From Escherichia coli (GTDB lineage: Bacteria; Pseudomonadota; Gammaproteobacteria; Enterobacterales; Enterobacteriaceae), in NCBI RefSeq assembly GCF_013122565.1, contig NZ_CP053258.1: a stretch of 64,000 nt of DNA, one strand, 5' to 3'. Of the stretch, positions 1,424 to 57,617 are shown one piece after another. The first letter of the stretch is position 1; each line of letters opens with the position of its first letter. The notes below the pieces were generated by a model, which was given only the letters and a program-made list of their open reading frames with translations, was not told the origin of the DNA and searched no databases. The translations under genes and the position numbers were made by a program.

Positions 1424-1567
1424 GTTATTAACCTCCTAAAGCCTGGCGATAACACGATAATTTGCAAATCAGATATTTCCAATATCAGCATTTGTTATCA
1501 ATTTATTCTGCGCTAAGGCAACTGCCTGATAAGGTGTTAAAGTTATAAAACCCTTCGCATAAAGGAG

Positions 1568-2347
1568 TTGTACACCGTGCCTGGTTTGAAGATTACGCTT
1601 TTGCAGCAACCACTGGTGTGGATGGATGGTCCTGCCAACCTGCGCCATTTTGATCGTCAACTGGAAGGTATTACCGGGCGCGATGTGATCGTTCTACCGG
1701 AGATGTTTACCAGCGGCTTTGCCATGGAAGCGGCAGCTTCGTCGCTAGCACAAGATGACGTAGTGAACTGGATGACAGCTAAGGCGCAGCAGTGCAATGC
1801 GCTGATTGCAGGCAGTGTTGCATTACAAACGGAGTCTGGTTCGGTTAACCGCTTTTTGCTGGTTGAGCCGGGCGGCACGGTACATTTTTATGATAAGCGT
1901 CATCTGTTCCGCATGGCAGATGAGCATCTACATTATAAAGCGGGCAATGCGCGAGTGATTGTGGAATGGCGCGGCTGGCGTATTTTGCCGTTGGTGTGCT
2001 ACGACTTACGTTTTCCGGTGTGGTCGCGCAATCTCAACGATTATGACCTCGCCATCTACGTTGCCAACTGGCCTGCTCCGCGCTCTCTGCACTGGCAGGC
2101 CTTGCTGACAGCCCGCGCGATTGAGAATCAGGCGTATGTGGCGGGATGCAATCGCGTCGGCAGCGATGGCAACGGCTGCCATTATCGCGGTGACAGCCGG
2201 GTGATTAACCCGCAGGGCGAGATTATCGCTACTGCCGACGCGCATCAGGCAACACGCATTGATGCGGAGCTGTCGATGGTGGCATTGCGGGAATATAGAG
2301 AAAAGTTTCCGGCATGGCGGGATGCGGATGAGTTTAGGTTGTGGTGA
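1568..2347 (+). CDS. yafV: nitrilase-family omega-amidase YafV (2-oxoglutaramate amidase)
   Basis: 259 aa ORF; true start may be the GTG at 1577 (VPGLKITLLQQ); carbon-nitrogen hydrolase family; K-12 synteny. Confidence 0.85.
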   Translation: MYTVPGLKITLLQQPLVWMDGPANLRHFDRQLEGITGRDVIVLPEMFTSGFAMEAAASSLAQDDVVNWMTAKAQQCNALIAGSVALQTESGSVNRFLLVEPGGTVHFYDKRHLFRMADEHLHYKAGNARVIVEWRGWRILPLVCYDLRFPVWSRNLNDYDLAIYVANWPAPRSLHWQALLTARAIENQAYVAGCNRVGSDGNGCHYRGDSRVINPQGEIIATADAHQATRIDAELSMVALREYREKFPAWRDADEFRLW

Positions 2348-2449
2348 GTGGGTGTTGTGTTTAAGGCCGGGGAAGACTACGAAAGCCCCTAACTTAAACA
2401 CAATATTACGCCAGAAGTCACCATTTCCAAAACACAGCGCCGCTGTACC

Positions 2450-2683
2450 GTGGGTTATCTGCCCAACCGCAGCGACACGCCGGTGATCAAAATCAGCGCC
2501 AAATGGCTGAGAGAAGCGGGATTTGCGATCGGCACGGGCGTTACCGTGAGGATCTCGGAAGGCTGCCTGATCCTGCTTGCGGATAACAACGAAGTACAGG
2601 AACTGCGCAGGGAACTTTATCAGGTTAAACAGTCAGTTAAGGGGATGCGTGACGGGATGTTTAGTGTGCTGAACGAGAGTTAA
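2450..2683 (+). pseudogene. SymE-like (AbrB-fold type I toxin family) gene lacking an ATG start; possible GTG start at 2450
   Basis: Translation ...VIKISAKWLREAGFAIGTGVTVRISEGCLILLAD resembles the SymE C-terminal core; in-frame stop at 2396 and no ATG upstream. Confidence 0.5.
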
Positions 2684-2690
2684 ATAATAA

Positions 2691-2724
2691 AAAGCCGGGA
2701 AGATTTTATTTCCTACCCGGCTTT
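2691..2724. terminator. bidirectional hairpin between convergent SymE-like gene and immunity gene
   Basis: aaagccggg ... cccggcttt inverted repeat flanked by A and T runs. Confidence 0.45.
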
Positions 2725-2729
2725 TAACA

Positions 2730-3179
2730 TTAATGCTTCAAGGGGAATGACTTCATCAGTAATTCTTCTAAAGAAGAATATAAAAATTCCATTTCATAAG
2801 AGTCATGCAGAAAAACAAATATCTTACCATCTGTATTCATAAGAATAGGGTTTCCGCAGCCATCATCTGAAATAGCATAAAATGAATTCAATATATTTTT
2901 ATCAAGATCTTTATATATTTCCCTAAACTTCAGAGTAAGATCAACTACAGAAGCCTTTCCTACTAAGGAACCATTTTTAAAGGCATGTATAGCTATGCCA
3001 CCAAAGGCCCCACCAAATTTCTTAATAAACTCAATATATTGTATATTGAATTTAATATTTAATATTTTTTCAGCCTGAATGATCTCCTCATCAGAAGCTG
3101 GTATACCATATAGGACCATATCTTGGTCAGATGTTATCTCATCTCTGACTCTTGCTAGCAATTCTTCATTCATACGCAA
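2730..3179 (-). CDS. putative immunity protein (SMI1/KNR4, SUKH-like) for orphan rhs module 4
   Basis: 149 aa AT-rich ORF directly downstream of and overlapping the rhs tip; SUKH-like pattern. Confidence 0.55.
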   Translation of the reverse strand: MRMNEELLARVRDEITSDQDMVLYGIPASDEEIIQAEKILNIKFNIQYIEFIKKFGGAFGGIAIHAFKNGSLVGKASVVDLTLKFREIYKDLDKNILNSFYAISDDGCGNPILMNTDGKIFVFLHDSYEMEFLYSSLEELLMKSFPLKH

Positions 3180-4297
3180 CCGCCCCCTCTATTGCTTAAA
3201 ACTTTTTCAGCTTGTGATTTCCAGAATTCTTTTTTCCACAGGTTAAATTCTTGACGATTATTTATACCTGAACCTTTTTTATTTCCATTTGGGTGCTGAC
3301 CAGCGTTATTTGTACTTGAACCATGATGTTTATCTGGCATAGCAGTAATTGGCCCTTGTGATTGCTGCCTGTCATGGTGCAATACTATTACATTCCCTTG
3401 CCTATCGCTCGGAGATAAACCAAATGGATGAGGAGCATCATCACTGTTCATAAAAATAATTCTATTAAGCTCGGAATCACTTAAGTGACTTAAATCCGTG
3501 TAACCTGATACATCTAAAGTTAATCCTCTGCTATCAGTAAAAGTAACAGTTAAACCCAGAGGATCGATCCAACTTATTGGATTAGGCGCATATTGGTATA
3601 AGTTTATCCCACCCGCCAGCCCTATCGGGTCCTGACTGATAAACCTCCCGCACTCCGGCGCATAATACCTGAACAGATTGTAATGCAGTCCCGTCTCTTC
3701 ATCATAATACTGCCCCGGCAGCCGCAGCGGTTGCTCAAAGTACGCCCCGCTGTTGCTGATGTCGCCCCGGTTTTCACCAAATCCCGCCTGATAGCCCGCC
3801 CACACCAGCGTCCCGTCCGCCGCGGTCACCTCCTGTACCGTGCCCGTCAGGTCCGTGTGGTAATACCAGATTTTTTGACTCTCTCCGCGCCCGGTGATGG
3901 CGGCCACCGGCGTGTACGGCTGTTCCGCGTCGTACAGGTATGTCCGCTTTCCCTGCCACGTTGTCTCCTGCAACAGCCGGAACCCTTCCCACACAAACGT
4001 TGTCCGGCTTCGTTCTCCCCGGTCGGTATGGAGATTGCTGGTCGCCTTGCTGATGCGCCTGCCCAGCGCATCATACTGATACCGCGTCTCGCTGTTGCTG
4101 CTGATGACCCGCGTTAACTGACCCTGCGCGTTCCACTCCAGCTGTTGGTCCCTGCGCTCTGTCAGTTCGCCCCATTCGTTATAGCGGTAACGGTCACGCC
4201 CGTAGCCCGGCAGGCGGTTATCCGGCACCGCTCCCTGATGCTCATCCGTCAGCAGGTTGCCCGCTTTGTCGTAATAATAATGGTCATGGTCGTACAT
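3170..4297 (-). CDS. orphan Rhs C-terminal fragment 4: core repeat, DPLGL, His-rich HNH-like tip
   Basis: About 0.75 kb near-identical to the 3' core of the main rhs (homology to ~4335), then a divergent tip with VLHHDRQQSQGP...KHHG; no N-terminus of its own. Confidence 0.7.
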   Translation of the reverse strand: MYDHDHYYYDKAGNLLTDEHQGAVPDNRLPGYGRDRYRYNEWGELTERRDQQLEWNAQGQLTRVISSNSETRYQYDALGRRISKATSNLHTDRGERSRTTFVWEGFRLLQETTWQGKRTYLYDAEQPYTPVAAITGRGESQKIWYYHTDLTGTVQEVTAADGTLVWAGYQAGFGENRGDISNSGAYFEQPLRLPGQYYDEETGLHYNLFRYYAPECGRFISQDPIGLAGGINLYQYAPNPISWIDPLGLTVTFTDSRGLTLDVSGYTDLSHLSDSELNRIIFMNSDDAPHPFGLSPSDRQGNVIVLHHDRQQSQGPITAMPDKHHGSSTNNAGQHPNGNKKGSGINNRQEFNLWKKEFWKSQAEKVLSNRGGGCV

Positions 4298-4376
4298 CTG
4301 CCCCGTGCGACTGGTCAGCCAGCCGCTGCGATCATACGCAAAATGCCCCCATCCGCATGCAAGCAGTATTTATCCT

Positions 4377-4682
4377 TTAGGAAAAGAGATTTATAGCTTT
4401 CTCTTGAAGTTCTATACCTATATCCTCAAGTTTGATCAGCTCGTCCTTACTGTACATTCCCTCCCGAAAAGAAAACATTCCATATACATCCATTAGTGCC
4501 AATCCTAAAACTTTTGGAACCATAATTTCATCAGCATATATTTCCGCCAAAAAATCCAGCGCCTTATATAATTCTTCAATTTCATTATCAAAAAAATCTT
4601 TCTTGAGTCTTAATCTAACAGGTATTGAATCATCTCCTAATAATTTATCGACCACTATTTTCAATGCAATCTCTTTATCCAT
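4377..4682 (-). CDS. putative immunity protein for orphan rhs module 3
   Basis: 101 aa AT-rich ORF immediately downstream of the orphan toxin tip. Confidence 0.45.
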   Translation of the reverse strand: MDKEIALKIVVDKLLGDDSIPVRLRLKKDFFDNEIEELYKALDFLAEIYADEIMVPKVLGLALMDVYGMFSFREGMYSKDELIKLEDIGIELQEKAINLFS

Positions 4683-4698
4683 ATATCATTTCCTGTCT

Positions 4699-6315
4699 TT
4701 AACAAGATCTAATAGCATTTGATGGGACATGGCCTTCCACAAGTACTTCTCCAGAACTAACTGCATAGTTACGGGCTGGTCCTTTTAATCCAGCATCCGT
4801 TGCTTTCTCTACCGTGGATAAGTCAATAATATTCCGATTACCTTTAACATCAGGAATAACATCGTCAGTATCAAATGTAACTGTAGTTTGGCCTGGTTCA
4901 CGGTATCGTACTGCTACATATTCATTTACGGTAGTTGAAATGAATTGTGAGCCTTTAAACGAATCATTACTACCATTTCTAACATGACCAGCAGCGCTCA
5001 TTCCTCGCCCCGGGTTCTTTGCAGATAGCCCCTCACTAATAGATTCATCCGCACGAATATTTCGAAATACCTTGATTAAGCCAAGAGGATCAATCCAGCT
5101 AATCGGATTCGGCGCATACCTGTAAAGATTCAGACCGCCACGGATCGAAATCGGATCCTGACTGATAAACCTCCCGCACTCCGGCGCATAATACCTGAAC
5201 AGATTGTAATGCAGCCCCGTCTCTTCATCATAATACTGCCCCGGCAGCCGCAGTGGTTGCTCAAAGTACGCCCCGCTGTTGCTGATGTCGCCCCGGTTTT
5301 CGCCAAATCCCGCCTGGTAGCCCGCCCACACCAGCGTCCCGTCCGGCGCGGTCACCTCCTGTACCGTGCCCGTCAGGTCCGTGTGGTAATACCAGATTTT
5401 TTGACTCTCTCCGCGCCCCGTGATGGCTGCCACCGGCGTGTACGGCTGTTCCGCGTCGTACAGGTATGTCCGCTTCCCCTGCCACGTTGTCTCCTGTAAC
5501 AGCCGGAACCCTTCCCACACAAACGTCGTCTGCCGCTGTTCCCTCTGGTCCGTATGGCGGCCATATGTCGCCTTGCTGATGCGCCTGCCCAGCGCATCAT
5601 ACTGATACCGCGTCTCGCTGTTGCTGCTGATGACCCGCGTTAACTGGCCCTGCGCGTTCCACTCCAGTTGCTGGTCCCTGCGCTCTGTCAGTTCGCCCCA
5701 TTCGTTATAGCGGTAGCGGTCACGCCCGTAGCCCGGCAGGCGGTTATCCGGCACCGCTCCCTGATGCTCATCCGTCAGCAGATTGCCCGCTTTGTCGTAA
5801 TAATAATGGTCATGGTCGTACATCTGACCCGTGCGACTGGTCAGCCAGCCGCTGCGGTCATAGCTGAACACCAGGCAACCGCGCAGTTTGTCATTGATGC
5901 CGCCGACTTCACCGTCTGCGTTCCAGATATAATCCCGCGCTGTCACGCTGTCTTTCTGCGCCGGGGGGTTACCGGCCTGCTGCGGATTCTGGCTGCCGCC
6001 TGGCAGGCTGCGCTGCCAGCTTAACCGGTTATCGGCGTTGTAGCCGCTGAACGTCGCCAGTTTCCCCTGGGTGCGCATCACCTGACGGTGCAGGCTGTCA
6101 CGCTCATATTCACTGACCGTGATACCGTCCAGTGCCGTCTGGAGCAGATGCCCGCTGCCGTAGTAAAGATGGCTGAGATGCTGCCCGTCCGGCAGGGTAA
6201 TGCCGGTGGGATTGCCCAGCGCGTCACGCTGATATTTTATGCTGCCGTGCACGCTGTGCTCTGCCGTCAGCCAGCCGCTGCGGTCATACGCAAAACGCAC
6301 CGTGTCCGCCTGCAA
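4699..6315 (-). CDS. orphan Rhs C-terminal fragment 3: core repeat, DPLGL, ADP-ribosyltransferase-like tip
   Basis: About 1.4 kb rhs core homology; tip has VFRNIRAD...SQFISTT...GEVLVEG, resembling the pertussis-toxin S1 R / STS / E pattern. Confidence 0.7.
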   Translation of the reverse strand: MQADTVRFAYDRSGWLTAEHSVHGSIKYQRDALGNPTGITLPDGQHLSHLYYGSGHLLQTALDGITVSEYERDSLHRQVMRTQGKLATFSGYNADNRLSWQRSLPGGSQNPQQAGNPPAQKDSVTARDYIWNADGEVGGINDKLRGCLVFSYDRSGWLTSRTGQMYDHDHYYYDKAGNLLTDEHQGAVPDNRLPGYGRDRYRYNEWGELTERRDQQLEWNAQGQLTRVISSNSETRYQYDALGRRISKATYGRHTDQREQRQTTFVWEGFRLLQETTWQGKRTYLYDAEQPYTPVAAITGRGESQKIWYYHTDLTGTVQEVTAPDGTLVWAGYQAGFGENRGDISNSGAYFEQPLRLPGQYYDEETGLHYNLFRYYAPECGRFISQDPISIRGGLNLYRYAPNPISWIDPLGLIKVFRNIRADESISEGLSAKNPGRGMSAAGHVRNGSNDSFKGSQFISTTVNEYVAVRYREPGQTTVTFDTDDVIPDVKGNRNIIDLSTVEKATDAGLKGPARNYAVSSGEVLVEGHVPSNAIRSC

Positions 6316-6488
6316 CTAGCTGTTCAGATGGTGAATTTAACTACACCTTCTGGTTATCACCGTATTCAAGTGCCGCGATGCAACTACTGGGAAACTACAC
6401 TCATTCTCTTATTATTTTTAGAAATTTTCATCTATTAAATAATACACATGACCGATATTATTTAACCCTGCTGGGTATAACTGAAAAA

Positions 6489-7340
6489 TTATTTATTTTT
6501 AATTAAATTCATTAAATCCCAAACATTGCTATCATAATGATTGAAACCTTGAATCACAAGATAAGACAATGCTTTCATATCCAACAAAAATCTGATTTTC
6601 CCGTCTATAATTTTTGTATTTTCCGTTATAAACAATCGTTCCAATTTAACAAGATTACTTATTTTAGCTACGCTTGGAATATCACCCATTTTTGAAAAAG
6701 ATATTTTTTTAATTGAAGGTAATTTACTTACATCTTCAATGATTGACACTGCCATTTTTTTGCATAAAGATAAAGACACTTCTTCTATATTTTTCAAACC
6801 ATCTAAAAAAGTCGTGTCCGAAGCCTTAGATAATCCAGATAACTTGATGCTCCTTAAAGTCTTGATAGATGATAAATTAGGGATTGTTTGAATATTGCTA
6901 TTTTTTATCTCTAATGATTGCAAGAATGATCTCCCCGCAACATGCTCTTTTTTTTCTTTAAAATCTATCAATGTTATTTTTTCCAGAGTTCTGTGATTAA
7001 ACAAATTATCAATTCCATTTCGACCTATTAATACAGCCTCTTTTAAAAATGGGAAATATGATAAATCAAGTCTCATTTTATCATCATTCAAAAGATGGAT
7101 GAGTTGTATTTTTTTCAACGAATACAGTTGTGATATATCCTTTATTTTATTGCCTGTGATATATATTTCATTAATGAAATTAATTTCATCAAGAAATGAT
7201 AAATCAGTTATAAGCGGTGACAAAACCAACCCGTTAACTTTCTTTTCCTTCATCGTGTCAACAATATGACTTGTATCGTCATGCTTTTCATACACAAGGA
7301 CACGACTTCCCCGTACACCATAATTTTCCACTAGTCTCAT
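6489..7340 (-). CDS. putative immunity protein, leucine-rich-repeat-like, for orphan rhs module 2
   Basis: 283 aa AT-rich ORF with repeated L-rich segments, directly downstream of the orphan tip. Confidence 0.45.
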   Translation of the reverse strand: MRLVENYGVRGSRVLVYEKHDDTSHIVDTMKEKKVNGLVLSPLITDLSFLDEINFINEIYITGNKIKDISQLYSLKKIQLIHLLNDDKMRLDLSYFPFLKEAVLIGRNGIDNLFNHRTLEKITLIDFKEKKEHVAGRSFLQSLEIKNSNIQTIPNLSSIKTLRSIKLSGLSKASDTTFLDGLKNIEEVSLSLCKKMAVSIIEDVSKLPSIKKISFSKMGDIPSVAKISNLVKLERLFITENTKIIDGKIRFLLDMKALSYLVIQGFNHYDSNVWDLMNLIKNK

Positions 7341-7359
7341 ATATTTCCCCTTAAATAAA

Positions 7360-8820
7360 TCAACACTCCCCCTTCACTCTAAAATCTTGATCTGAAACAT
7401 TTCCTGTATTTGGTGGTCGTTTTTCATTACTGGTTACTCCTCTTCCTCCATTTTTAGCTATTTTCATTGCCTCTAAATTATTTAGCCATTGTTTACTAAT
7501 TCCAGCATATTTATCAAAATTCAACGAATCCAACATTGCCTGAGTTAACTTTCCACTTCGGGCATGTTGCAACATTCTCTGATATAGATTTTTTGTTTGA
7601 CCTGCATACATTTTACCCGCACCTTCATCAAAAAACTCATAAATTGCTTGCCCTTTATATTTTGCAGTAACATCTCTTATTTGTTCTAAAAAATCACTAG
7701 CGAGTCTTACTAATCCCCAAGGATCAATCCACCTCAGCGGATTCGGCGCATACCTGTAAAGATTCAGCCCACCCCGGATCGAAATCGGGTCCTGGCTTAT
7801 GAACCTTCCGCACTCCGGCGCATAATACCTGAACAGATTGTAATGCAGCCCCGTCTCTTCATCATAATACTGCCCCGGCAGCCGCAGCGGTTGCTCAAAG
7901 TACGCCCCGCTGTTGCTGATGTCGCCCCGATTTTCTCCAAATCCCGCCTGGTAGCCCGCCCACACCAGCCTCCCGTCCGGCGCGGTCACCTCCTGTACCG
8001 TGCCCGTCAGGTCCGTGTGGTAATACCAGATTTTTTGACTCTCTCCGCGCCCGGTGATGGCCGCCACTGGCGTGTACGGCTGTTCCGCGTCGTACAGGTA
8101 TGTCCGCTTTCCCTGCCACGTTGTCTCCTGCAACAGCCGGAACCCTTCCCACACAAACGTCGTCCGCCGCTGTTCCCTCTGGACCGTATGGCGGCCATAT
8201 GTCGCCTTGCTGATGCGCCTGCCCAGCGCATCATACTGATACCGCGTCTCGCTGTTGCTGCTGATGACCCGCGTTAACTGGCCCTGCGCGTTCCACTCCA
8301 GTTGCTGGTCCCTGCGCTCTGTCAGTTCGCCCCATTCGTTATAGCGGTAACGGTCACGCCCGTAGCCCGGCAGGCGGTTATCCATCACCGCGCTCTGATA
8401 CTCGTCCGTCAGCAGATTGCCCGCTTTGTCGTAATAATAATGGTCATGGTCGTACATCTGCCCCGTGCGGCTGGTCAGCCAGCCGCTGCGGTCATACGCA
8501 AAGCGCACCGTGTCCGCCTGCATGTGGTGCAGCCGTTCCCCTTCTTTCGTCGGGGTGAGCGTCACTTCCGTTATCTGGTCAAGACGGTTGTAGCTGAAGG
8601 TCCGTGTACTGTGCTGCGTGTCACTGCGCAACAGGCGGCCCAGCGCATCACGCTCCTGCCGCTCATTACGCCCCCCGCCTTCTGTACCCTGCGTCTGGAT
8701 GATGACCGGATACCCGCCCGCATTCAGCGCCAAATGGCTGAGAGAAGCGGGATTTGAGATCGGCACGGGCGTTACCGTGAAGATCTCGGAGGGATGTCTG
8801 ATCCTGCTTGCGGATAACAA
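7360..8820 (-). CDS. orphan Rhs C-terminal fragment 2: core repeat, DPWGL, GIY-YIG-like tip
   Basis: About 1.1 kb rhs core homology; tip has AIYEFFDEGAGKMYAGQTKNLYQRMLQH; the first ~30 codons are antisense to the SymE-like remnant. Confidence 0.7.
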   Translation of the reverse strand: MLSASRIRHPSEIFTVTPVPISNPASLSHLALNAGGYPVIIQTQGTEGGGRNERQERDALGRLLRSDTQHSTRTFSYNRLDQITEVTLTPTKEGERLHHMQADTVRFAYDRSGWLTSRTGQMYDHDHYYYDKAGNLLTDEYQSAVMDNRLPGYGRDRYRYNEWGELTERRDQQLEWNAQGQLTRVISSNSETRYQYDALGRRISKATYGRHTVQREQRRTTFVWEGFRLLQETTWQGKRTYLYDAEQPYTPVAAITGRGESQKIWYYHTDLTGTVQEVTAPDGRLVWAGYQAGFGENRGDISNSGAYFEQPLRLPGQYYDEETGLHYNLFRYYAPECGRFISQDPISIRGGLNLYRYAPNPLRWIDPWGLVRLASDFLEQIRDVTAKYKGQAIYEFFDEGAGKMYAGQTKNLYQRMLQHARSGKLTQAMLDSLNFDKYAGISKQWLNNLEAMKIAKNGGRGVTSNEKRPPNTGNVSDQDFRVKGEC

Positions 8821-8914
8821 CGAAGTACAGGAACTGCGCAGGGAGCTTTATCAGGTTAAACAGGCAGTTAAGGGGATGCGGGACGGGATGTTTAGTGTGC
8901 TGAACGAAAGTTAA
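8729..8914 (+). pseudogene. SymE-like 3' remnant (last ~62 codons) fused to an rhs-fragment boundary
   Basis: Near-identical to 2497..2683; homology to the first copy starts abruptly at the junction with rhs-core sequence (~8728). Confidence 0.45.
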
Positions 8915-8922
8915 ATAATAAA

Positions 8923-8955
8923 AAAGCCGGGAAGGTAAATAAGCTTCCCGGCTTT
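8923..8955. terminator. bidirectional intrinsic terminator hairpin
   Basis: 12 bp perfect stem aaagccgggaag / cttcccggcttt with 9 nt loop, flanked by A-run and T-run. Confidence 0.6.
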
Positions 8956-8975
8956 CCACAACAATTTTAACTTAA

Positions 8976-9464
8976 TTAATCATAAGCATCGCCGTAATTT
9001 TCATATTTCCAATAAATATATTTACCACCTGAGCTATATAATTTATGCAATAATTCTGTAAAAGTCATTGCAATAATTGGACAACTACCTACAACGCCAT
9101 GTATCTCATAATTGCTATCATAACAGCGTCCATTTCTTTCTGTAGAAAAATCAATGGATAAATAATCATTATTATCGGTCCTGCAAATTAAGTACCATGA
9201 AGATGATATATCATCCTCACATGGCTCACCAACTATAAATTTATTTGCCTGTAATATTTCATTATTTTTCAAAATAGTGAAGGAGATTTCCTGCTCTTCA
9301 GAGCAAAACAATTTTATTCCATTACATATTTTGTAAAAACGAACAACATCATCAGGATATTTTAAATAATCAGATGGTAATAAAGGCAAATTACCATCTG
9401 GTGGAATAACTTCACATCTGTTATCATTTTTTATCAAGTCAAGTAATTCATCAATGCCATTCAT
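8976..9464 (-). CDS. putative immunity protein (SUKH-like) for orphan rhs module 1
   Basis: 162 aa AT-rich ORF downstream of the orphan tip; LLPSDYLKY...FYKICNG pattern. Confidence 0.5.
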   Translation of the reverse strand: MNGIDELLDLIKNDNRCEVIPPDGNLPLLPSDYLKYPDDVVRFYKICNGIKLFCSEEQEISFTILKNNEILQANKFIVGEPCEDDISSSWYLICRTDNNDYLSIDFSTERNGRCYDSNYEIHGVVGSCPIIAMTFTELLHKLYSSGGKYIYWKYENYGDAYD

Positions 9465-9473
9465 ATTACCACC

Positions 9474-11312
9474 TTAAAAAATAACAGTATCAAACTTCCC
9501 AGAGTATATAAACTGGTTCAATGCCCGGTAATATGCTTCCCTACTGGCAACAGGAACATTTGCGGCATCAAACATTCGTTCAGTAAGATCTTTCATTTCT
9601 CTGCTACTTACTGTTGTCCAATCCACTTTCCCACCAACTCTTCTTCCGGTTTTCTGCTCTAACCAATCTCTATATACTTTTTTTGTTGCAGCATGATTAG
9701 CCTCGGATAATGCAATTGTTGGTGACTTTGAAGGATATTTCCCTCCATAAGATGGCACATTCTTAGACATCCAAATATCAAGCACACCATGATGGTTTTC
9801 TAAAGAGGAATTAATTGGTCGATAAGGAACAACATCAAACTCTTTAACTTCACCGCACTTAAGTCCAAGGGGATCTATCCACCCCAGCGGATTCGGCGCA
9901 TAAGCATACTGGTTCAGCCCACCCGCCAGCCCTATCGGGTCCTGGCTTACGAACCGCCCGCACTCCGGCGCATAATACCTGAACAGATTATAGTGCAGCC
10001 CCGTCTCTTCATCATAATACTGCCCCGGCAGCCGCAGCGGCTGTTCAAAGTACGCCCCGCTGTTGCTGATATCGCCCCGGTTTTCGCCAAATCCCGCCTG
10101 GTAGCCCGCCCACACCAGCGTCCCGTCCGCCGCGGTCACCTCCTGTACCGTGCCCGTCAGGTCCGTGTGGTAATACCAGATTTTTTGACTCTCTCCGCGC
10201 CCCGTGATGGCGGCCACCGGCGTGTACGGCTGTTCCGCGTCGTACAGGTATGTCCGCTTTCCCTGCCACGTTGTCTCCTGCAACAGCCGGAACCCTTCCC
10301 ACACAAACGTTGTCCGGCTTCGTTCTCCCCGGTCCGTATGGCGGCCATATGTCGCCTTGCTGATGCGCCTGCCCAGCGCATCATACTGATACCGCGTCTC
10401 GCTGTTGCTGCTGATGACCCGCGTTAACTGGCCCTGCGCGTTCCACTCCAGCTGCTGGTCCCTGCGCTCTGTCAGTTCGCCCCATTCGTTATAGCGGTAG
10501 CGGTCACGCCCGTAGCCCGGCAGGCGGTTATCCATCACCGCTCCCTGATATTCATCCGTCAGCAGGTTGCCCGCTTTATCGTAATAATAATGGTCATGGT
10601 CATACATCTGCCCCGTGCGGCTGGTCAGCCAGCCGCTGCGGTCATAGCTGAACACCAGGCAACCGCGCAGTTTGTCATTGATGCCGCCGACTTCACCGTC
10701 TGCGTTCCAGATATAGTCCCGCGCTGTCACGCTGTCGCTGTGTGACGGGGGTGTGGCTGTCTGCTGTGGGTTCTGGCTGCCGCCTGGCAGGCTGCGCTGC
10801 CAGCTTAACCGGTTGTCGGCGTTGTAGCCGCTGAACGTCGCCAGTTTCCCCTGGGTGCGCATCACCTGACGGTGCAGACTGTCACGCTCATATTCACTGA
10901 CCGTGATACCGTCCAGTGCCGTCTGGAGCAGATGTCCGCTGCCGTAGTAAAGATGGCTGAGGTGCTGCCCGTTCGGTAACGTGATGTCGGTGGGATTGCC
11001 CAGCGCGTCACGCTGATATTTTATGCTGCCGTGCACGCTGTGCTCTGCCGTCAGCCACCCGCTGCGGTCATACGCAAAGCGCACCGTGTCCGCCTGCATG
11101 TGGTGCAGCCGTTCCCCTTCTTTCGTCGGGGTGAGCGTCACTTCCGTTATCTGGTCAAGACGGTTGTAGCTGAAGGTCCGTGTACTGTGCTGCGTGTCAC
11201 TGCGCAACAGGCGGCCCAGCGCATCACGCTCCTGTCGCTCATTACGCACCCCGCCTTCTGTACCCTGCGTCTGGATGATGACCGGATACCCGCCCGCATT
11301 CAGCACAAACAT
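9474..11312 (-). CDS. orphan Rhs C-terminal fragment 1: core repeat, DPLGL, unassigned toxin tip
   Basis: About 1.6 kb homologous to main rhs (to ~11476, where an in-frame stop precedes it); first ATG at 11312; tip ~130 aa with no recognizable motif. Confidence 0.7.
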   Translation of the reverse strand: MFVLNAGGYPVIIQTQGTEGGVRNERQERDALGRLLRSDTQHSTRTFSYNRLDQITEVTLTPTKEGERLHHMQADTVRFAYDRSGWLTAEHSVHGSIKYQRDALGNPTDITLPNGQHLSHLYYGSGHLLQTALDGITVSEYERDSLHRQVMRTQGKLATFSGYNADNRLSWQRSLPGGSQNPQQTATPPSHSDSVTARDYIWNADGEVGGINDKLRGCLVFSYDRSGWLTSRTGQMYDHDHYYYDKAGNLLTDEYQGAVMDNRLPGYGRDRYRYNEWGELTERRDQQLEWNAQGQLTRVISSNSETRYQYDALGRRISKATYGRHTDRGERSRTTFVWEGFRLLQETTWQGKRTYLYDAEQPYTPVAAITGRGESQKIWYYHTDLTGTVQEVTAADGTLVWAGYQAGFGENRGDISNSGAYFEQPLRLPGQYYDEETGLHYNLFRYYAPECGRFVSQDPIGLAGGLNQYAYAPNPLGWIDPLGLKCGEVKEFDVVPYRPINSSLENHHGVLDIWMSKNVPSYGGKYPSKSPTIALSEANHAATKKVYRDWLEQKTGRRVGGKVDWTTVSSREMKDLTERMFDAANVPVASREAYYRALNQFIYSGKFDTVIF

Positions 11313-11517
11313 CCGTATCAGACCGTCCGGGCGCTGTTCTCCCGTCAGCCGTCCGTCCGCATCGTGACTGAACCGGTAAAGCGCTCCGTTGCCGTTGCTC
11401 AGACTGGCAATCCATCCCTCCGCGGTATAATGCCAGCGCGTCTCCCGTTTCTCTTCATCCGTGTGGCACGCCAGTTAACATACGTCTACTGACAAAACCA
11501 TTAGTCCAAACAAAATC

Positions 11518-16474
<4,957 letters not shown>

Positions 16475-41568: not shown

Positions 41569-43452
41569 ATGGATCCACGGCTACTGGAATACTACAACCG
41601 CGAACTGAGCTATCTGCGGGAAACGGGAGCCGAATTTGCCGCCCGTCATCCCAAAGTCGCCGCCCGGCTGGGCATGCAGGGAACGGATATTGCCGATCCG
41701 TATGTGGAGCGGATGGTCGAAGCCTTCAGCTTCCTGACCGCCCGCACGCAGCTAAAAATTGACGCTGAATTCCCTCGTTTCACCCAGCGCCTGCTGGAAG
41801 TGGTCAGCCCCAATTACGTCACACCCACGCCCTCAATGAGCGTGGCGCAGTTGCATCCCGATACGGAAGAAGGCGATCTGGCAAAAGGATTTACCGTCCC
41901 GCGCGACACGGCCTTTTTCTCCGCCATTCCGGAAGGCGAAAGCACTGCCTGCCAGTTTCGCAGCAGCCAGGATGTAACGCTGTGGCCGCTCGCCATCGAA
42001 GAGGCGCGACTGACCGCCGCGCCGCCGGATATGCCTGCCCTGCACCGCTACCTGCCGGCCAACATTCACGTCGCCGGGGCGCTGCGTATTACCCTGCGCA
42101 CCTTTGGTGAACTAACGTTCAGTCAGCTTGCCGGACTGGACAGGCTGCCGTTTTATCTCTGCGGCGAGGAGCGTACGGCCTCACACCTGTTCGAACTTCT
42201 ACATACCAGCGCCATCGCGACCCTGGCTGGCATTCCGGGACATTTTGACGGCGCGTTGGATGTGAATCTGCAACAGCCCGTTATGTACGAAGGCCTGGAG
42301 CCGGATCAGGGGCTGCTGCCGCTGGCGTGGAACGTGTTTCACGGTCATAACCTGCTGCATGAATATTTTGCCTGTCCGGAACGCTTCTATTTTTTCACCC
42401 CGACAGGCCTGTCTGCCGGATTACAGAAAATTGACGGTGGCGTGGCGGAGATTGTTATCCTGCTGAACCGCCTGCCGCCGGACTGGCTGATCCACCAGAC
42501 AAATACGGCACAGTTCAGCCTGTTCTGTACCCCGGTTATCAACCTGTTTCCCCGCGTCACCGCCCGGATCGATGTCACGCACAGCACGACGGAACAGCAT
42601 CTGGTGGTGGACAGAACCCATCCGCTGGATTATGAGGTGTTCTCGGTCCAGGAAGTGGAAGGGCTGGAAACCGACACCACACGGAAGATGGCCTTTCGCC
42701 CGCTCTACCACACCCGCAATAACGATGAAGGCAATCACGGGCGTTATTTTTCCCTGCGCCGGGAGCCGCGCCGCTTATCAGAAAACGCCCGCCGTTACGG
42801 TACCCGTACTCCCTATACGGGATCAGAAGTGTTCCTGTCGCTGGTTGACCAGTATGAAGCGCCGTACCCGGAAAATCTGCGCCACATCACCATCACGGCC
42901 ATGATCACTAACCGCGATCTGCCCTGTCTTATTGCCCGCAATGGCCGGGACGATCTAACCGTGGATGCGGCCATCCCGGTGGCGGGCGTAGGGCTTATCC
43001 GCCCGCCACGCTCGCCGCAGCCCCCGCTGGCTGAACGTGAGATGGCATGGCGGTTGATCCGCCAGTTATCTTTTAATTATCTGCCGCTGGCCGATCTGGA
43101 TCACCGTACCGGCGGCCAGGCGTTGCGAGATCTGCTGAACCTGTTTATTCCTGCTCATGACAGTCCGCAATCGCGCCAGGTGCGCAGCCTGATTGGTTGT
43201 AAAACGACCCCGGTCACCCGCCGTCTGCCCGGTTCCGGACTACTGGTCTATGGGCGTGGCGTCAGTTGTGAACTGACGGTGGATGAAGAAGGTTTTTCCG
43301 GCATCAGTCCGTATCTGTTCGGCCTGGTGCTGGAACACTATATCGCCCGCCATGTTTCCATTAATACCTTCTCGCAGATGACGCTGCACAGCATGCAGCG
43401 TGGCAAAATTATGACCTGGCCTGTCAGGGCGGGACAGCGGGGAAGCGTATGA
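41569..43452 (+). CDS. tssF: T6SS baseplate protein TssF
   Basis: 627 aa; N-terminus MDPRLLEYYNRELSYLRETGAEFAARHPKVAARLG typical of TssF. Confidence 0.9.
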   Translation: MDPRLLEYYNRELSYLRETGAEFAARHPKVAARLGMQGTDIADPYVERMVEAFSFLTARTQLKIDAEFPRFTQRLLEVVSPNYVTPTPSMSVAQLHPDTEEGDLAKGFTVPRDTAFFSAIPEGESTACQFRSSQDVTLWPLAIEEARLTAAPPDMPALHRYLPANIHVAGALRITLRTFGELTFSQLAGLDRLPFYLCGEERTASHLFELLHTSAIATLAGIPGHFDGALDVNLQQPVMYEGLEPDQGLLPLAWNVFHGHNLLHEYFACPERFYFFTPTGLSAGLQKIDGGVAEIVILLNRLPPDWLIHQTNTAQFSLFCTPVINLFPRVTARIDVTHSTTEQHLVVDRTHPLDYEVFSVQEVEGLETDTTRKMAFRPLYHTRNNDEGNHGRYFSLRREPRRLSENARRYGTRTPYTGSEVFLSLVDQYEAPYPENLRHITITAMITNRDLPCLIARNGRDDLTVDAAIPVAGVGLIRPPRSPQPPLAEREMAWRLIRQLSFNYLPLADLDHRTGGQALRDLLNLFIPAHDSPQSRQVRSLIGCKTTPVTRRLPGSGLLVYGRGVSCELTVDEEGFSGISPYLFGLVLEHYIARHVSINTFSQMTLHSMQRGKIMTWPVRAGQRGSV

Positions 43453-45630: not shown

Positions 45631-45707
45631 TGGCGGAACGGACGGGACTCGAACCCGCGACCCCCTGCGTGACAGGCAGGTATTCTAACCGACTGAACTA
45701 CCGCTCC
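45631..45707 (-). tRNA. aspV: tRNA-Asp (GUC)
   Basis: Exact 77 nt match to the E. coli tRNA-Asp sequence including CCA (reverse complement). Confidence 0.97.
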
Positions 45708-53854: not shown

Positions 53855-53931
53855 TGGCGGAACGGACGGGACTCGAACCCGCGACCCCCTGCGTGACAGG
53901 CAGGTATTCTAACCGACTGAACTACCGCTCC
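53855..53931 (-). tRNA. aspU: tRNA-Asp (GUC)
   Basis: Identical 77 nt tRNA-Asp sequence, downstream of 5S rRNA. Confidence 0.97.
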
Positions 53932-57422: not shown

Positions 57423-57498
57423 TGGTGGAGCTATGCGGGATCGAACCGCAGACCTCCTGCGTGCAAAGCAGGCGCTCTCCCAGCTGAGCTATAGCCCC
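57423..57498 (-). tRNA. alaV: tRNA-Ala (UGC)
   Basis: 76 nt match to tRNA-Ala in the 16S-23S spacer. Confidence 0.95.
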
Positions 57499-57540
57499 AT
57501 AACATGTAGTTAAAACCTCTTCAAATTTGCGGTGCAAATT

Positions 57541-57617
<77 letters not shown>

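What the first reader, a model, noticed from the sequence alone, without database searches (positions are those of the whole stretch)
2396..2729. Two SymE-like gene copies mark the ends of cassette sub-arrays
A SymE-like AbrB-fold ORF lacking its N-terminus lies convergent to orphan module 4, next to yafV. A second copy of only its last ~62 codons (8729..8914) is fused directly to rhs-core sequence at the start of orphan 2. Both are followed by near-identical terminator hairpins. This suggests the array grew by inserting a module that carried the SymE-like end, leaving the internal copy as a fossil junction.
Basis: seen in the sequence. Interest (0 to 1): 0.5.

Follow-up and report, generated by a model that had tools for sequence, protein, structure and literature searches.

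The report
SymE remnants bounding Rhs toxin cassettes
Two leftover pieces of a small SymE-family gene sit just downstream of Rhs toxin-immunity cassettes; they are old recombination scars on a conserved scaffold found in many enterobacteria, so the feature is real but mostly ordinary.

Summary
Copy A (2402-2683, +) is a SymE-family gene (Pfam PF08845, E=1e-14). It lacks only its first 5 codons, its ribosome-binding site and its promoter. Copy B (8724-8914, +) is the last 62 codons, 182/191 nt identical to A, joined to rhs core nt 2310 at a 5-nt microhomology (TCAGC). Each copy is followed by a strong hairpin with the same stem but a different loop.

The B junction did not form in this genome. 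The same joint occurs in 3 of 5426 complete E. coli genomes and in Escherichia sp. E1V33, each time with different toxin/immunity cargo.

In 31 loci from more than 15 enterobacterial genera, 42 of 50 SymE segments lie about 0.8 kb from a convergent rhs core end, sometimes in arrays of nine.

So SymE plus its hairpin belongs to the conserved scaffold around variable toxin-immunity cargo, and truncated copies mark old joints. "Fossil junction" is supported. Insertion, duplication and deletion cannot be told apart.

SymE-Rhs linkage was noted in 2007. The antisense strand matches the Shigella Ssr1 and Salmonella IsrA loci.

Side lead: intact copies in E. coli and Citrobacter belong to a SymE-cHTH-primase-XerC element flanked by rhs core-end repeats, with an empty-site comparison.

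The parts
1568..2347 (+). yafV (2-oxoglutaramate amidase), the chromosomal flank of the T6SS/rhs island
   Evidence: ORF. Annotated orthologues appear. A CN_hydrolase domain is called.
2399..2683 (+). SymE-family remnant A. The frame is open from 2399 and homology to the intact 97-aa gene starts at about 2402. The GTG ORF at 2450-2683 gives the 77 aa that PGAP annotates as WP_171459787.1.
   Evidence: Pfam PF08845 at E=1.2e-14. The exact protein is in NCBI. The missing N-terminus, MAEHDITPEV..., is conserved across the family.
2690..2725 (.). Hairpin A, a bidirectional terminator-like stem-loop between SymE remnant A and the convergent immunity gene. It also marks where homology to other E. 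coli yafV arrays ends.
   Evidence: -16.9 kcal/mol on the + strand and -19.1 on the - strand, z about -4.4. In one search, E. coli matches stop at window 2704-2726.
2493..2510 (-). Small hairpin TCAGC-N8-GCTGA followed by a T-run on the minus strand. Its edge is the position at which copy B is broken.
2730..4336 (-). Orphan module 4: SMI1/KNR4 immunity gene (2730-3179), HNH/EndoVII toxin tip, and rhs core from main-rhs nt 2968.
7360..8728 (-). Orphan 2 rhs fragment. The core starts at main-rhs nt 2310 and has a secondary internal deletion of nt 2565-2967 between 23-nt repeats. Its ORF runs 32 codons into antisense SymE.
8724..8728 (.). The joint: microhomology TCAGC shared by SymE and the rhs core.
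8724..8914 (+). SymE-family remnant B, the last 62 codons plus the stop. It has no start codon of its own.
   Evidence: tblastn matches residues 35-97.
8923..8955 (.). Hairpin B, with the same stem as A but a different loop. It marks where homology to E. coli PE164 ends.
8976..11474 (-). Orphan module 1: immunity gene (8976-9464), toxin tip, and rhs core from main-rhs nt 2140.

Best explanation
The two segments are remnants of a SymE-family (AbrB-fold) gene. In Enterobacterales this gene is the usual downstream neighbour of Rhs toxin-immunity cassettes. It points toward the immunity gene and shares a bidirectional terminator hairpin with it.

SymE plus the hairpin on one side, and the rhs core on the other, form a conserved scaffold. 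The toxin tip and immunity gene between them are the exchangeable cargo.

Copy A is the array's terminal SymE gene. It was cut 5 codons into the gene, where the T6SS island meets the yafV flank. Copy B is an old illegitimate-recombination joint. SymE codon 35 was fused to rhs core nt 2310 at a 5-nt microhomology, so that a block ending in a SymE tail came to lie upstream of a block beginning with partial rhs core. That joint has since been inherited or exchanged among Escherichia, and the cargo on either side has been replaced by homologous recombination in the scaffold.

Shown: homology, the truncation points, the shared junction, and cargo replacement exactly between the core end and the hairpin.

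Inferred: that the remnants are not expressed as protein, and that the scaffold homology is what drives cassette exchange and array growth.
For: - Family and truncation: Pfam SymE_toxin at E=1.2e-14. The intact 97-aa relative has an SD and an ATG, and A starts 5 codons in. The lost N-terminus is conserved family-wide. The GTG at 2450 has no SD, and no promoter-like site lies upstream.
- The joint: microhomology TCAGC. The identical junction occurs in PapRG-06-5, PE164, a third E. coli genome (3/5426) and Escherichia sp. E1V33, where the core lacks the deletion seen here.
- Scaffold versus cargo: against PE164, homology covers rhs core, SymE-B and hairpin B (8474-8955). It resumes at the core end of orphan 1 (9871), and the roughly 0.9 kb between is unrelated. 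The E. coli yafV arrays listed (H2-H13) match the window only up to hairpin A.
- Mosaic: the internal PapRG copy is B-like at its 5' end and A-like at its 3' end, and it carries the window's orphan-4 cargo.
- Generality: 42 of 50 SymE segments in 31 loci from more than 15 genera have a convergent rhs core end within 2 kb downstream (median 822 nt). One array has 9 SymE fragments interleaved with 10 core ends.
- Other SymE-to-rhs-core joints exist at different breakpoints, such as the q212 class at the rhsC and rhsE loci.
- Decay: the internal PapRG copy has an in-frame stop, and one E. fergusonii copy appears frameshifted in an ungapped extraction.
- SymE-Rhs neighbourhoods were already noted by Kawano et al. 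2007 and in passing in later genome papers.
Against: - The 77-aa GTG ORF is intact here. Intact 77-aa ORFs also occur in many E. albertii, E. fergusonii and E. coli genomes, though at other loci or with other junction classes.
- Substitutions among copies are biased toward synonymous changes (pN/pS 0.1-0.6). Some copies may therefore still be translated or otherwise constrained.
- The antisense strand corresponds to a region reported to give an sRNA in Shigella (Ssr1) and to a sense-antisense pair in Salmonella (IsrA/STM0294.1n). An RNA-level function is not excluded.
- No expression data exist for this strain.
- The order of events (insertion, duplication or deletion) is unresolved.
- That the scaffold 'serves' recombination is an inference from where homology breaks.
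Confidence: 0.72

Rival explanations
1. Copy A is a working gene. On this reading a 77-aa SymE-like toxin, translated from the GTG at 2450, acts as an addiction or stress module that stabilises the end of the rhs array.
For: The ORF is intact, and PGAP annotates it as a SymE family toxin. Intact 77-aa ORFs occur in E. albertii (97 contigs) and E. fergusonii (39 contigs). pN/pS is below 1. Most of the Pfam domain is retained.
Against: It lacks residues 1-20, which are invariant or nearly so across the family. There is no SD before the GTG, and the simple scan finds no promoter-like site. No cHTH partner or SymR-like RNA is present. The score of 47.5 bits falls well below the 132-bit cut-off of the NCBIfam SymE equivalog. 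Other copies carry stops or frameshifts. Purifying selection could have acted in intact donor genes, with later gene conversion into the remnants. In line with that, A is closer to the intact D6 gene (96.9%) than to its positional orthologues (93-94%).
Confidence: 0.12
2. The functional unit is an RNA on the minus strand. A candidate is an Ssr1/IsrA-like antisense or 3'-UTR-derived sRNA starting near the hairpin and ending at the small terminator at 2493. The SymE reading frame would then be incidental.
For: Minus-strand Rfam hits to Ssr1 score 277 and 160 bits, and hits to isrA score 26 and 38 bits. Ssr1 was detected by northern blot and 5'RACE between an Rhs gene and SF0269 in S. flexneri. 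IsrA is a 423-nt antisense partner of STM0294.1n. A terminator-like hairpin with a T-run lies on the minus strand at 2510-2493.
Against: All Rfam scores are below the gathering thresholds (820 and 51). The Ssr1 match is sequence identity to a genomic region with 353 model positions missing, not evidence of structure. No promoter-like site was found on the minus strand between the hairpin and 2493. The excess of synonymous changes indicates protein-level constraint in the family's history. In copy B the T-run after the small hairpin has been replaced by rhs core.
Confidence: 0.15
3. The SymE pieces are scars of an integrative element that delivers Rhs tips. The proposed element is [rhs core end - toxin tip - immunity - SymE - cHTH - primase/helicase - XerC-like recombinase]. 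It would insert at the DPIGL-coding edge of the rhs core, after which the backbone is deleted.
For: - Such units sit in the E. coli D6 and M23314 rhsE loci and in Citrobacter sedlakii, flanked by 91-nt core-end repeats.
- Empty-site comparison: E. coli JNE151685 has a tip fused to its main rhs. In D6 the same tip is an orphan with only 87-91 nt of core, sitting behind the XerC end. Homology resumes exactly at GACCCGATAGGG.
- Right-end remnants of the element lie between SymE fragments and the next core end in Kosakonia and Enterobacter.
Against: The window holds no primase, xerC, cHTH or element-end sequence. Its orphans keep 0.8-1.6 kb of core, not 91 nt. Copy B is fused to core nt 2310, not to an element end. 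Intact SymE genes also sit alone at array ends next to core genes. No excision or integration has been demonstrated.
Confidence: 0.2
4. Copy B is the novel joint of an in-situ tandem duplication of the segment running from rhs core nt 2310 to SymE codon 35, formed by unequal sister-strand exchange. On this reading no DNA was imported.
For: The geometry fits a duplication joint exactly. Short microhomology is typical of such joints.
Against: A and B differ mostly by synonymous changes (6 of 9, P=0.006), which is not expected for untranslated duplicates decaying in place. The cargo on the two sides is unrelated. The joint is shared by strains with different cargo, so any duplication happened long ago and elsewhere. 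This is a sub-model of the best explanation rather than an alternative to it.
Confidence: 0.25

Closest known systems
E. coli K-12 SymE/SymR type I toxin-antitoxin pair (Kawano, Aravind & Storz 2007, PMC1891008)
   Same: Both have the same Pfam family (PF08845) and the AbrB-like fold. That paper's Figure 7 already lists SymE-family neighbourhoods with cHTH regulators, a primase-helicase gene, and haemagglutinin/RHS genes.
   Different: The score is only 47.5 bits against the SymE equivalog cut-off of 132. No SymR-like RNA is detected. The intact relatives are 97-109 aa and are either paired with a cHTH gene or stand alone. Both window copies are truncated.
Salmonella SPI-6 STM0294.1n / IsrA sense-antisense pair (Padalon-Brauch et al. 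2008, PMC2330248)
   Same: This is a sense-antisense pair in an island. The window's SymE segments give weak minus-strand matches to the isrA model.
   Different: The isrA scores of 26 and 38 bits are below the gathering score of 51. That STM0294.1n is SymE-like and lies in SPI-6 comes from my own recollection and the Rfam overlap; it was not tested here.
Shigella flexneri Ssr1 sRNA locus (PMC4782007; Rfam RF02627)
   Same: The minus strand of both copies matches about 270 nt of the 654-nt model nearly base for base. Ssr1 maps between an Rhs-family gene (SF0268) and SF0269.
   Different: The scores of 277 and 160 bits are far below the gathering score of 820. The central 353 model positions, which probably correspond to a different cargo gene, are absent. 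No transcript has been shown for this strain.
Rhs orphan arrays and C-terminal displacement (Jackson et al. 2009, PMC2935791; Koskiniemi et al. 2014, PMC3967940)
   Same: The layout is a main rhs gene followed by partial-core orphans, each with a tip and an immunity gene. Recombination in the conserved core moves the tips.
   Different: A word search of those two papers finds no mention of SymE, so they do not treat it as the conserved downstream border. [quoted passage not shown]
Microhomology-mediated (homology-facilitated) illegitimate recombination joints
   Same: There is one visible novel joint at a 5-nt microhomology next to long homologous sequence. The comparison with this mechanism rests on my own knowledge.
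   Different: The mechanism is inferred from the joint alone. The donor and recipient are unknown.

Membership tests
SymE family (Pfam PF08845 SymE_toxin, AbrB-like fold) | Significant match to the SymE_toxin domain | tested here: met
   Copy A matches at E=1.2e-14 over residues 13-59 of the 94-aa translation. Copy B matches NCBIfam SymE at E=2e-8 over its C-terminal part only.
SymE family (Pfam PF08845 SymE_toxin, AbrB-like fold) | Complete gene: native ATG, ribosome-binding site and the conserved N-terminus MAEHDITPEVTISKTQRR | tested here: not met
   A starts 5 codons into the gene and has no SD or ATG. B starts at codon 35.
E. coli SymE proper (NCBIfam NF010128 equivalog, type I TA with SymR) | Score above the curated cut-off of 132 bits | tested here: not met
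   47.5 bits for A and 46.7 bits for the intact D6 gene.
E. coli SymE proper (NCBIfam NF010128 equivalog, type I TA with SymR) | A cis-antisense SymR RNA over the 5' end, and an SOS (LexA) promoter | tested here: not met
   Neither the window (1500-12000) nor the intact D6 locus gave an Rfam match to a SymR family at E<=1. The 5' region that would carry these signals is missing from both window copies. LexA boxes were not searched.
Toxin activity of SymE-family proteins | Growth inhibition or nucleic-acid targeting when expressed | not testable with these tools
   Needs expression of the 77-aa and 97-aa forms.
Ssr1 sRNA (Rfam RF02627) | Score at or above the gathering threshold of 820 bits | tested here: not met
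   277 bits (2420-2730, minus strand) and 160 bits (8674-9138, minus strand). Model positions of about 29-381 are missing.
IsrA sRNA (Rfam RF01385) | Score at or above the gathering threshold of 51 bits | tested here: not met
   26.1 and 37.8 bits.
Rhs orphan toxin-immunity array | A main rhs gene followed by fragments with partial core, a distinct C-terminal tip and a small downstream immunity ORF | tested here: met
   Four orphans have cores starting at main-rhs nt 2140, 2310, 2516 and 2968, each followed by a small ORF.
Intrinsic (bidirectional) terminator | A stable GC-rich stem followed by a U-run | tested here: inconclusive
   The stems are strong on both strands (z -4.3 to -6.3). The minus-strand tails UUUUUAUUAUUU are good. 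The plus-strand tails are UUUUAACA (A) and UUUCCACA (B), which are weaker. The simple scanner did not list them because the loops exceed 8 nt.
Integrative element with a tyrosine recombinase (side lead, not in the window) | Recombinase gene at one end, direct repeats at both ends, and an empty site in a relative | tested here: met
   91-nt core-end repeats flank the unit in D6. The XerC-like gene sits next to the right end. The empty site in JNE151685 has homology resuming at GACCCGATAGGG. These features were met in related loci only.
Integrative element with a tyrosine recombinase (side lead, not in the window) | Demonstrated excision and integration | not testable with these tools
   Needs PCR for a circular form and an integration assay.

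The most novel reading that the evidence does not exclude
Intact SymE genes of this lineage may mark a mobile element that delivers Rhs toxin tips. The proposed unit is [rhs core end - tip - immunity - SymE - cHTH - primase/helicase - XerC-like recombinase]. It would integrate site-specifically at the DPIGL-coding edge of the rhs core. Integration would displace the resident tip into an orphan that keeps only about 90 nt of core. Later loss of the backbone would leave the SymE fragments that separate cassettes in arrays across Enterobacterales, including, indirectly, the two in this window. This would supply the integrase that Jackson et al. [quoted passage not shown]
Probability: 0.3. Interest if true: 0.7.

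Novelty: new member of a known kind. Interest (0 to 1): 0.38.

Why it matters
For this window, the result explains two short annotated 'toxin' ORFs. They are scaffold and scar rather than active genes. Automatic annotation as 'SymE family type I addiction module toxin' should not be read as evidence for a working toxin-antitoxin system here.

More broadly, SymE plus its hairpin is a regular downstream border of Rhs toxin-immunity cassettes in many enterobacterial genera. That gives a practical landmark for delimiting cassettes and for tracing how arrays were assembled.

The related XerC-primase unit flanked by rhs core-end repeats, together with its empty-site comparison, makes an old question testable: how do new Rhs tips arrive and displace resident ones?

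Tried and rejected
- Chance similarity: rejected. 182/191 nt are identical and the stems are shared.
- More SymE pieces, or cHTH, primase, xerC or element-end sequence elsewhere in the 64-kb window: none found by blastn or tblastn.
- SymR-like RNA: no Rfam match at E<=1 in the window (1500-12000) or at the intact D6 gene.
- Promoters: the simple sigma-70 scan found nothing upstream of 2450 on the plus strand. It also found nothing on the minus strand between either hairpin and the SymE 5' end. The total site count was at the level expected from shuffles.
- Terminator after yafV: the fold is no better than shuffled sequence (z=-0.3), so read-through from yafV into copy A cannot be excluded.
- Homology between the AT-rich 'leader' class and the XerC-element right end: the alignment shows two distinct sequence families that share only the core end.
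- E. coli IH5 as another element site: the locus is a patchwork of partial genes and was not informative.
- Literature searches for an integrase or primase element linked to Rhs orphans: these found only passing remarks (Steele 2017, Zhang 2012) and Jackson's statement that none was known.
- dN/dS: only 9 differences separate A and B, so the test is coarse.
- Source genome: I did not fully pin it down. The exact 77-aa protein is WP_171459787.1 / QJU25398.1, labelled E. coli.

Full report
THE LOCUS. The left end of the window carries fadE (partial), ivy and yafV (1568-2347, +). A SymE-like ORF follows on the plus strand. After that the minus strand carries an Rhs array: four orphan modules, then the main rhs gene (11871-16010), vgrG and a T6SS cluster. 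Mapped onto the main rhs gene, the orphan cores begin at nt 2140 (orphan 1, 9871-11474), nt 2310 (orphan 2), nt 2516 (orphan 3) and nt 2968 (orphan 4). Orphan 2 also has an internal deletion of nt 2565-2967.

CHECKING THE OBSERVATION. Window 2493-2683 aligns without gaps to 8724-8914, with 182/191 identical. The similarity runs on through the stop codon, an A-run and the hairpin stems, to 2725 and 8955. Upstream of those points the two sequences are unrelated. Translating 2399-2683 gives a SymE_toxin domain (PF08845, E=1.2e-14). It scores 47.5 bits against the NCBIfam SymE equivalog, whose cut-off is 132. It is therefore a SymE-family member but not an orthologue of K-12 SymE.

The intact relative is a 97-aa gene with an SD and an ATG at the rhsE locus of E. 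coli D6. Copy A matches it from 5 codons into the gene, so it lacks MAERD, the SD and all upstream sequence. The family N-terminus MAEHDITPEVTISKTQRR is invariant or nearly so in 13 diverse members. The 77-aa product from the GTG at 2450, which PGAP annotates as WP_171459787.1, would lack conserved residues 1-20. It also has no SD.

Copy B holds codons 35/36-97. Both hairpins are strong on both strands (-17 to -21 kcal/mol, z -4.3 to -6.3). They share stems but not loops, and their U-tracts are better on the minus strand, which is the strand of the convergent immunity genes.

THE INTERNAL JUNCTION. Three sequences were compared: SymE copy A, copy B, and the rhs core of orphan 1. B is rhs core up to ...GCATTCAGC and SymE from TCAGCGCCAAATGG onward. 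The crossover therefore lies in the pentamer TCAGC, with imperfect similarity on either side. The break sits at the edge of a small inverted repeat, TCAGC-N8-GCTGA, which on the minus strand is followed by a T-run.

The same joint (rhs nt 2310 to SymE) occurs in three of 5426 complete E. coli genomes, including PapRG-06-5 and PE164. In both named strains it lies in the yafV-side array. It also occurs in Escherichia sp. E1V33, where the rhs core behind it lacks the deletion. The deletion in the window's orphan 2, between 23-nt repeats, is therefore a later event. The joint is old and shared, and it was not made in this genome.

SCAFFOLD AND CARGO. Against PE164, homology covers rhs core, SymE-B and hairpin B (8474-8955) and resumes at the core end of orphan 1 (9871). 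The roughly 0.9 kb between these points, which holds the toxin tip and immunity gene, is unrelated. On the yafV side, the E. coli genomes listed (H2-H13) match the window through yafV and copy A and stop at hairpin A (window 2704-2726). Only PapRG-06-5 continues into the window's orphan-4 cargo, and there that cargo sits behind the B-type joint.

The PapRG copy is B-like at its 5' end and A-like at its 3' end, and it has hairpin A. This shows a crossover inside the SymE segment. SymE plus the hairpin behaves as a conserved flank, and the tip and immunity gene behave as replaceable cargo.

A and B differ by 6 synonymous and 3 non-synonymous changes (P=0.006 against neutral expectation). A is closer to the intact D6 gene (96.9%) than to its positional orthologues in E. 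coli (93-94%). Both facts suggest that the remnants derive from, or are converted by, functional copies, rather than decaying in place. Decay is nonetheless visible: the internal PapRG copy has an in-frame stop, and one E. fergusonii copy appears frameshifted.

HOW GENERAL THE PATTERN IS. This SymE lineage is present in 194 of 5426 E. coli genomes, at 512 places. The truncation points fall into recurrent classes:
- q152/157, at yafV.
- q212, which is fused to a different rhs core clade. It is internal at the rhsC locus of CT30 and terminal at the pptA side of the rhsE locus.
- q248, which is copy B of this window.
- q178, found in E. albertii and E. fergusonii. Here SymE from codon 12 is joined to a roughly 160-nt AT-rich leader that precedes a short rhs core end. 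The same joint occurs in Entomohabitans, Kosakonia, Citrobacter youngae and Superficieibacter.

Intact genes also stand alone at array ends next to core genes, as in E1V33 (next to ybgA) and CT30.

A scan of one genome per species found 31 loci in more than 15 genera of Enterobacterales holding 50 SymE segments. Of these, 42 have a convergent rhs core end within 2 kb downstream (median 822 nt, the size of a tip plus an immunity gene). Seventeen have another core end within 300 nt upstream. One array (L031) has 9 SymE fragments interleaved with 10 core ends. The window's two copies are a local example of a widespread layout.

WHAT WAS ALREADY KNOWN. Kawano, Aravind and Storz (2007) listed SymE-family neighbourhoods with cHTH regulators, a primase-helicase gene, and haemagglutinin/RHS genes. 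Later genome papers mention symE next to T6SS effector genes without explaining it.

The minus strand of both copies matches part of the Rfam Ssr1 model (277 and 160 bits against a gathering score of 820) and weakly matches isrA (26 and 38 bits against 51). Ssr1 was mapped between an Rhs gene and SF0269 in S. flexneri. IsrA is a 423-nt antisense partner of STM0294.1n in Salmonella. An antisense transcript here is therefore plausible but untested. A word search of the two rhs evolution papers finds no mention of SymE.

MOST LIKELY EXPLANATION. The two segments are remnants of the SymE gene that normally closes an Rhs cassette. Copy A was cut where the island meets yafV. Copy B is an old microhomology joint that stacked one SymE-terminated block onto a block starting with partial core. 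Scaffold homology (core on one side, SymE plus hairpin on the other) then allowed cargo replacement.

The shown steps are the homology, the breakpoints, the shared joint, and the places where cargo differs. The inferred steps are that the remnants are not translated, and that scaffold homology is the cause of exchange. Insertion of imported DNA, unequal sister exchange and deletion all give the same joint and cannot be separated here.

SIDE LEAD. In the E. coli D6 and M23314 rhsE loci, intact SymE is the second gene of a cHTH-SymE pair. This pair lies next to, and is transcribed divergently from, a 988-aa primase/helicase gene and a XerC-like recombinase gene, which are followed by about 0.9 kb of GC-rich DNA. 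The whole unit, together with a toxin tip and an immunity gene, is flanked by 91-nt repeats of the rhs core end, the DPIGL...DPLGL coding region. Citrobacter sedlakii has the same order.

E. coli JNE151685 looks like an empty site. Its main rhs carries a tip and an immunity gene (WP_023155668.1). In D6 these form an orphan with only 87-91 nt of core, sitting right after the XerC end. Homology resumes exactly at GACCCGATAGGG. Right-end remnants of the element lie between SymE fragments and the next core end in Kosakonia and Enterobacter sichuanensis. The right end is found in 56 of 5426 E. coli genomes and is followed by different tips.

Jackson et al. [quoted passage not shown] This unit is a candidate. 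It is absent from the window, and no excision has been shown, so I report it as a lead and not as the explanation of the window's copies.

VERDICT. The feature is a new instance of a known association and was already annotated by PGAP. Interest is modest (0.38), and comes mainly from the general scaffold pattern and the side lead.

Noticed in passing
L004 21500-37600 (E. coli D6, rhsE locus); L006; L019 5600-11078; empty site in L048 5563-9838: A unit of the form [91-nt rhs core end - toxin tip - immunity - SymE - cHTH - 988-aa primase/helicase - XerC-like recombinase - 0.9 kb GC-rich DNA] is repeated in tandem and flanked by core-end repeats. E. coli JNE151685 lacks it and has the downstream tip fused to its main rhs, with the break exactly at GACCCGATAGGG. 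This is a candidate integrative carrier of Rhs tips.
   Followed up: partly
L031 2000-13200 (Enterobacteriaceae bacterium UBA5654): An array of 9 SymE fragments interleaved with 10 rhs core-end fragments in about 11 kb. Three of the joints are identical (SymE from about residue 41, with 47 nt before the next core end).
   Followed up: partly
L007 9770-9990; L011 9850-10000 and 11110-11240; L016 879-1047; L017; L027; L030: A conserved AT-rich 'leader' of about 160 nt joins SymE (from codon 12) to a short rhs core end. The same joint is seen in E. albertii, E. fergusonii, Entomohabitans, Kosakonia, Citrobacter and Superficieibacter. It may carry divergent promoters; this was not tested.
   Followed up: partly
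window 8474-8496 (and main rhs nt 2542-2564 / 2968-2990): Orphan 2 lacks main-rhs nt 2565-2967. The deletion lies between two copies of a 23-nt repeat encoding YDRSGWLT. Orphan 4's core starts at the same repeat (nt 2968). Escherichia sp. E1V33 has the same SymE joint without the deletion.
   Followed up: partly
window 2493-2510, minus strand: A small hairpin, TCAGC-N8-GCTGA, followed by a T-run lies inside antisense SymE. Its edge is exactly where copy B is broken. It could be a terminator for an antisense RNA or a fragile site for illegitimate recombination.
   Followed up: no
window 7360-8820 (minus strand) and 8618-8914 (plus strand): Both strands stay open across the joint. The orphan-2 ORF runs 32 codons into antisense SymE (TTG at 8820). 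The SymE frame stays open for about 35 codons into antisense rhs core (GTG at 8618). PGAP calls short 'SymE' CDSs at the same joint in PE164 and PapRG-06-5.
   Followed up: no
window 2420-2730 and 8674-9138, minus strand: There are partial matches to the Rfam Ssr1 model (Shigella sRNA 1), with 353 central model positions missing in the first hit. That family model seems to describe a stretch of an rhs/SymE locus rather than a compact structured RNA.
   Followed up: partly
window 43235-43328 (+): ARAGORN reports a 94-nt tRNA-His inside a long T6SS ORF (41569-43452). This is probably a false positive.
   Followed up: no
window 45631-45707 and 53855-53931 (tRNA-Asp); 57423-57617 (tRNA-Ala, tRNA-Ile): The T6SS/rhs island runs from the SymE remnant at yafV to a tRNA-Asp gene. 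This matches the aspV-linked T6SS-1 island of E. coli as I recall it. A second tRNA-Asp and what looks like an rRNA-operon spacer lie further on.
   Followed up: no
L050 (E. coli IH5, 4.97-4.99 Mb): A fragment of the XerC-like gene and the element's right end lie next to a MobH-family relaxase. The region consists almost entirely of partial genes, which may reflect mis-assembly or heavy rearrangement.
   Followed up: no
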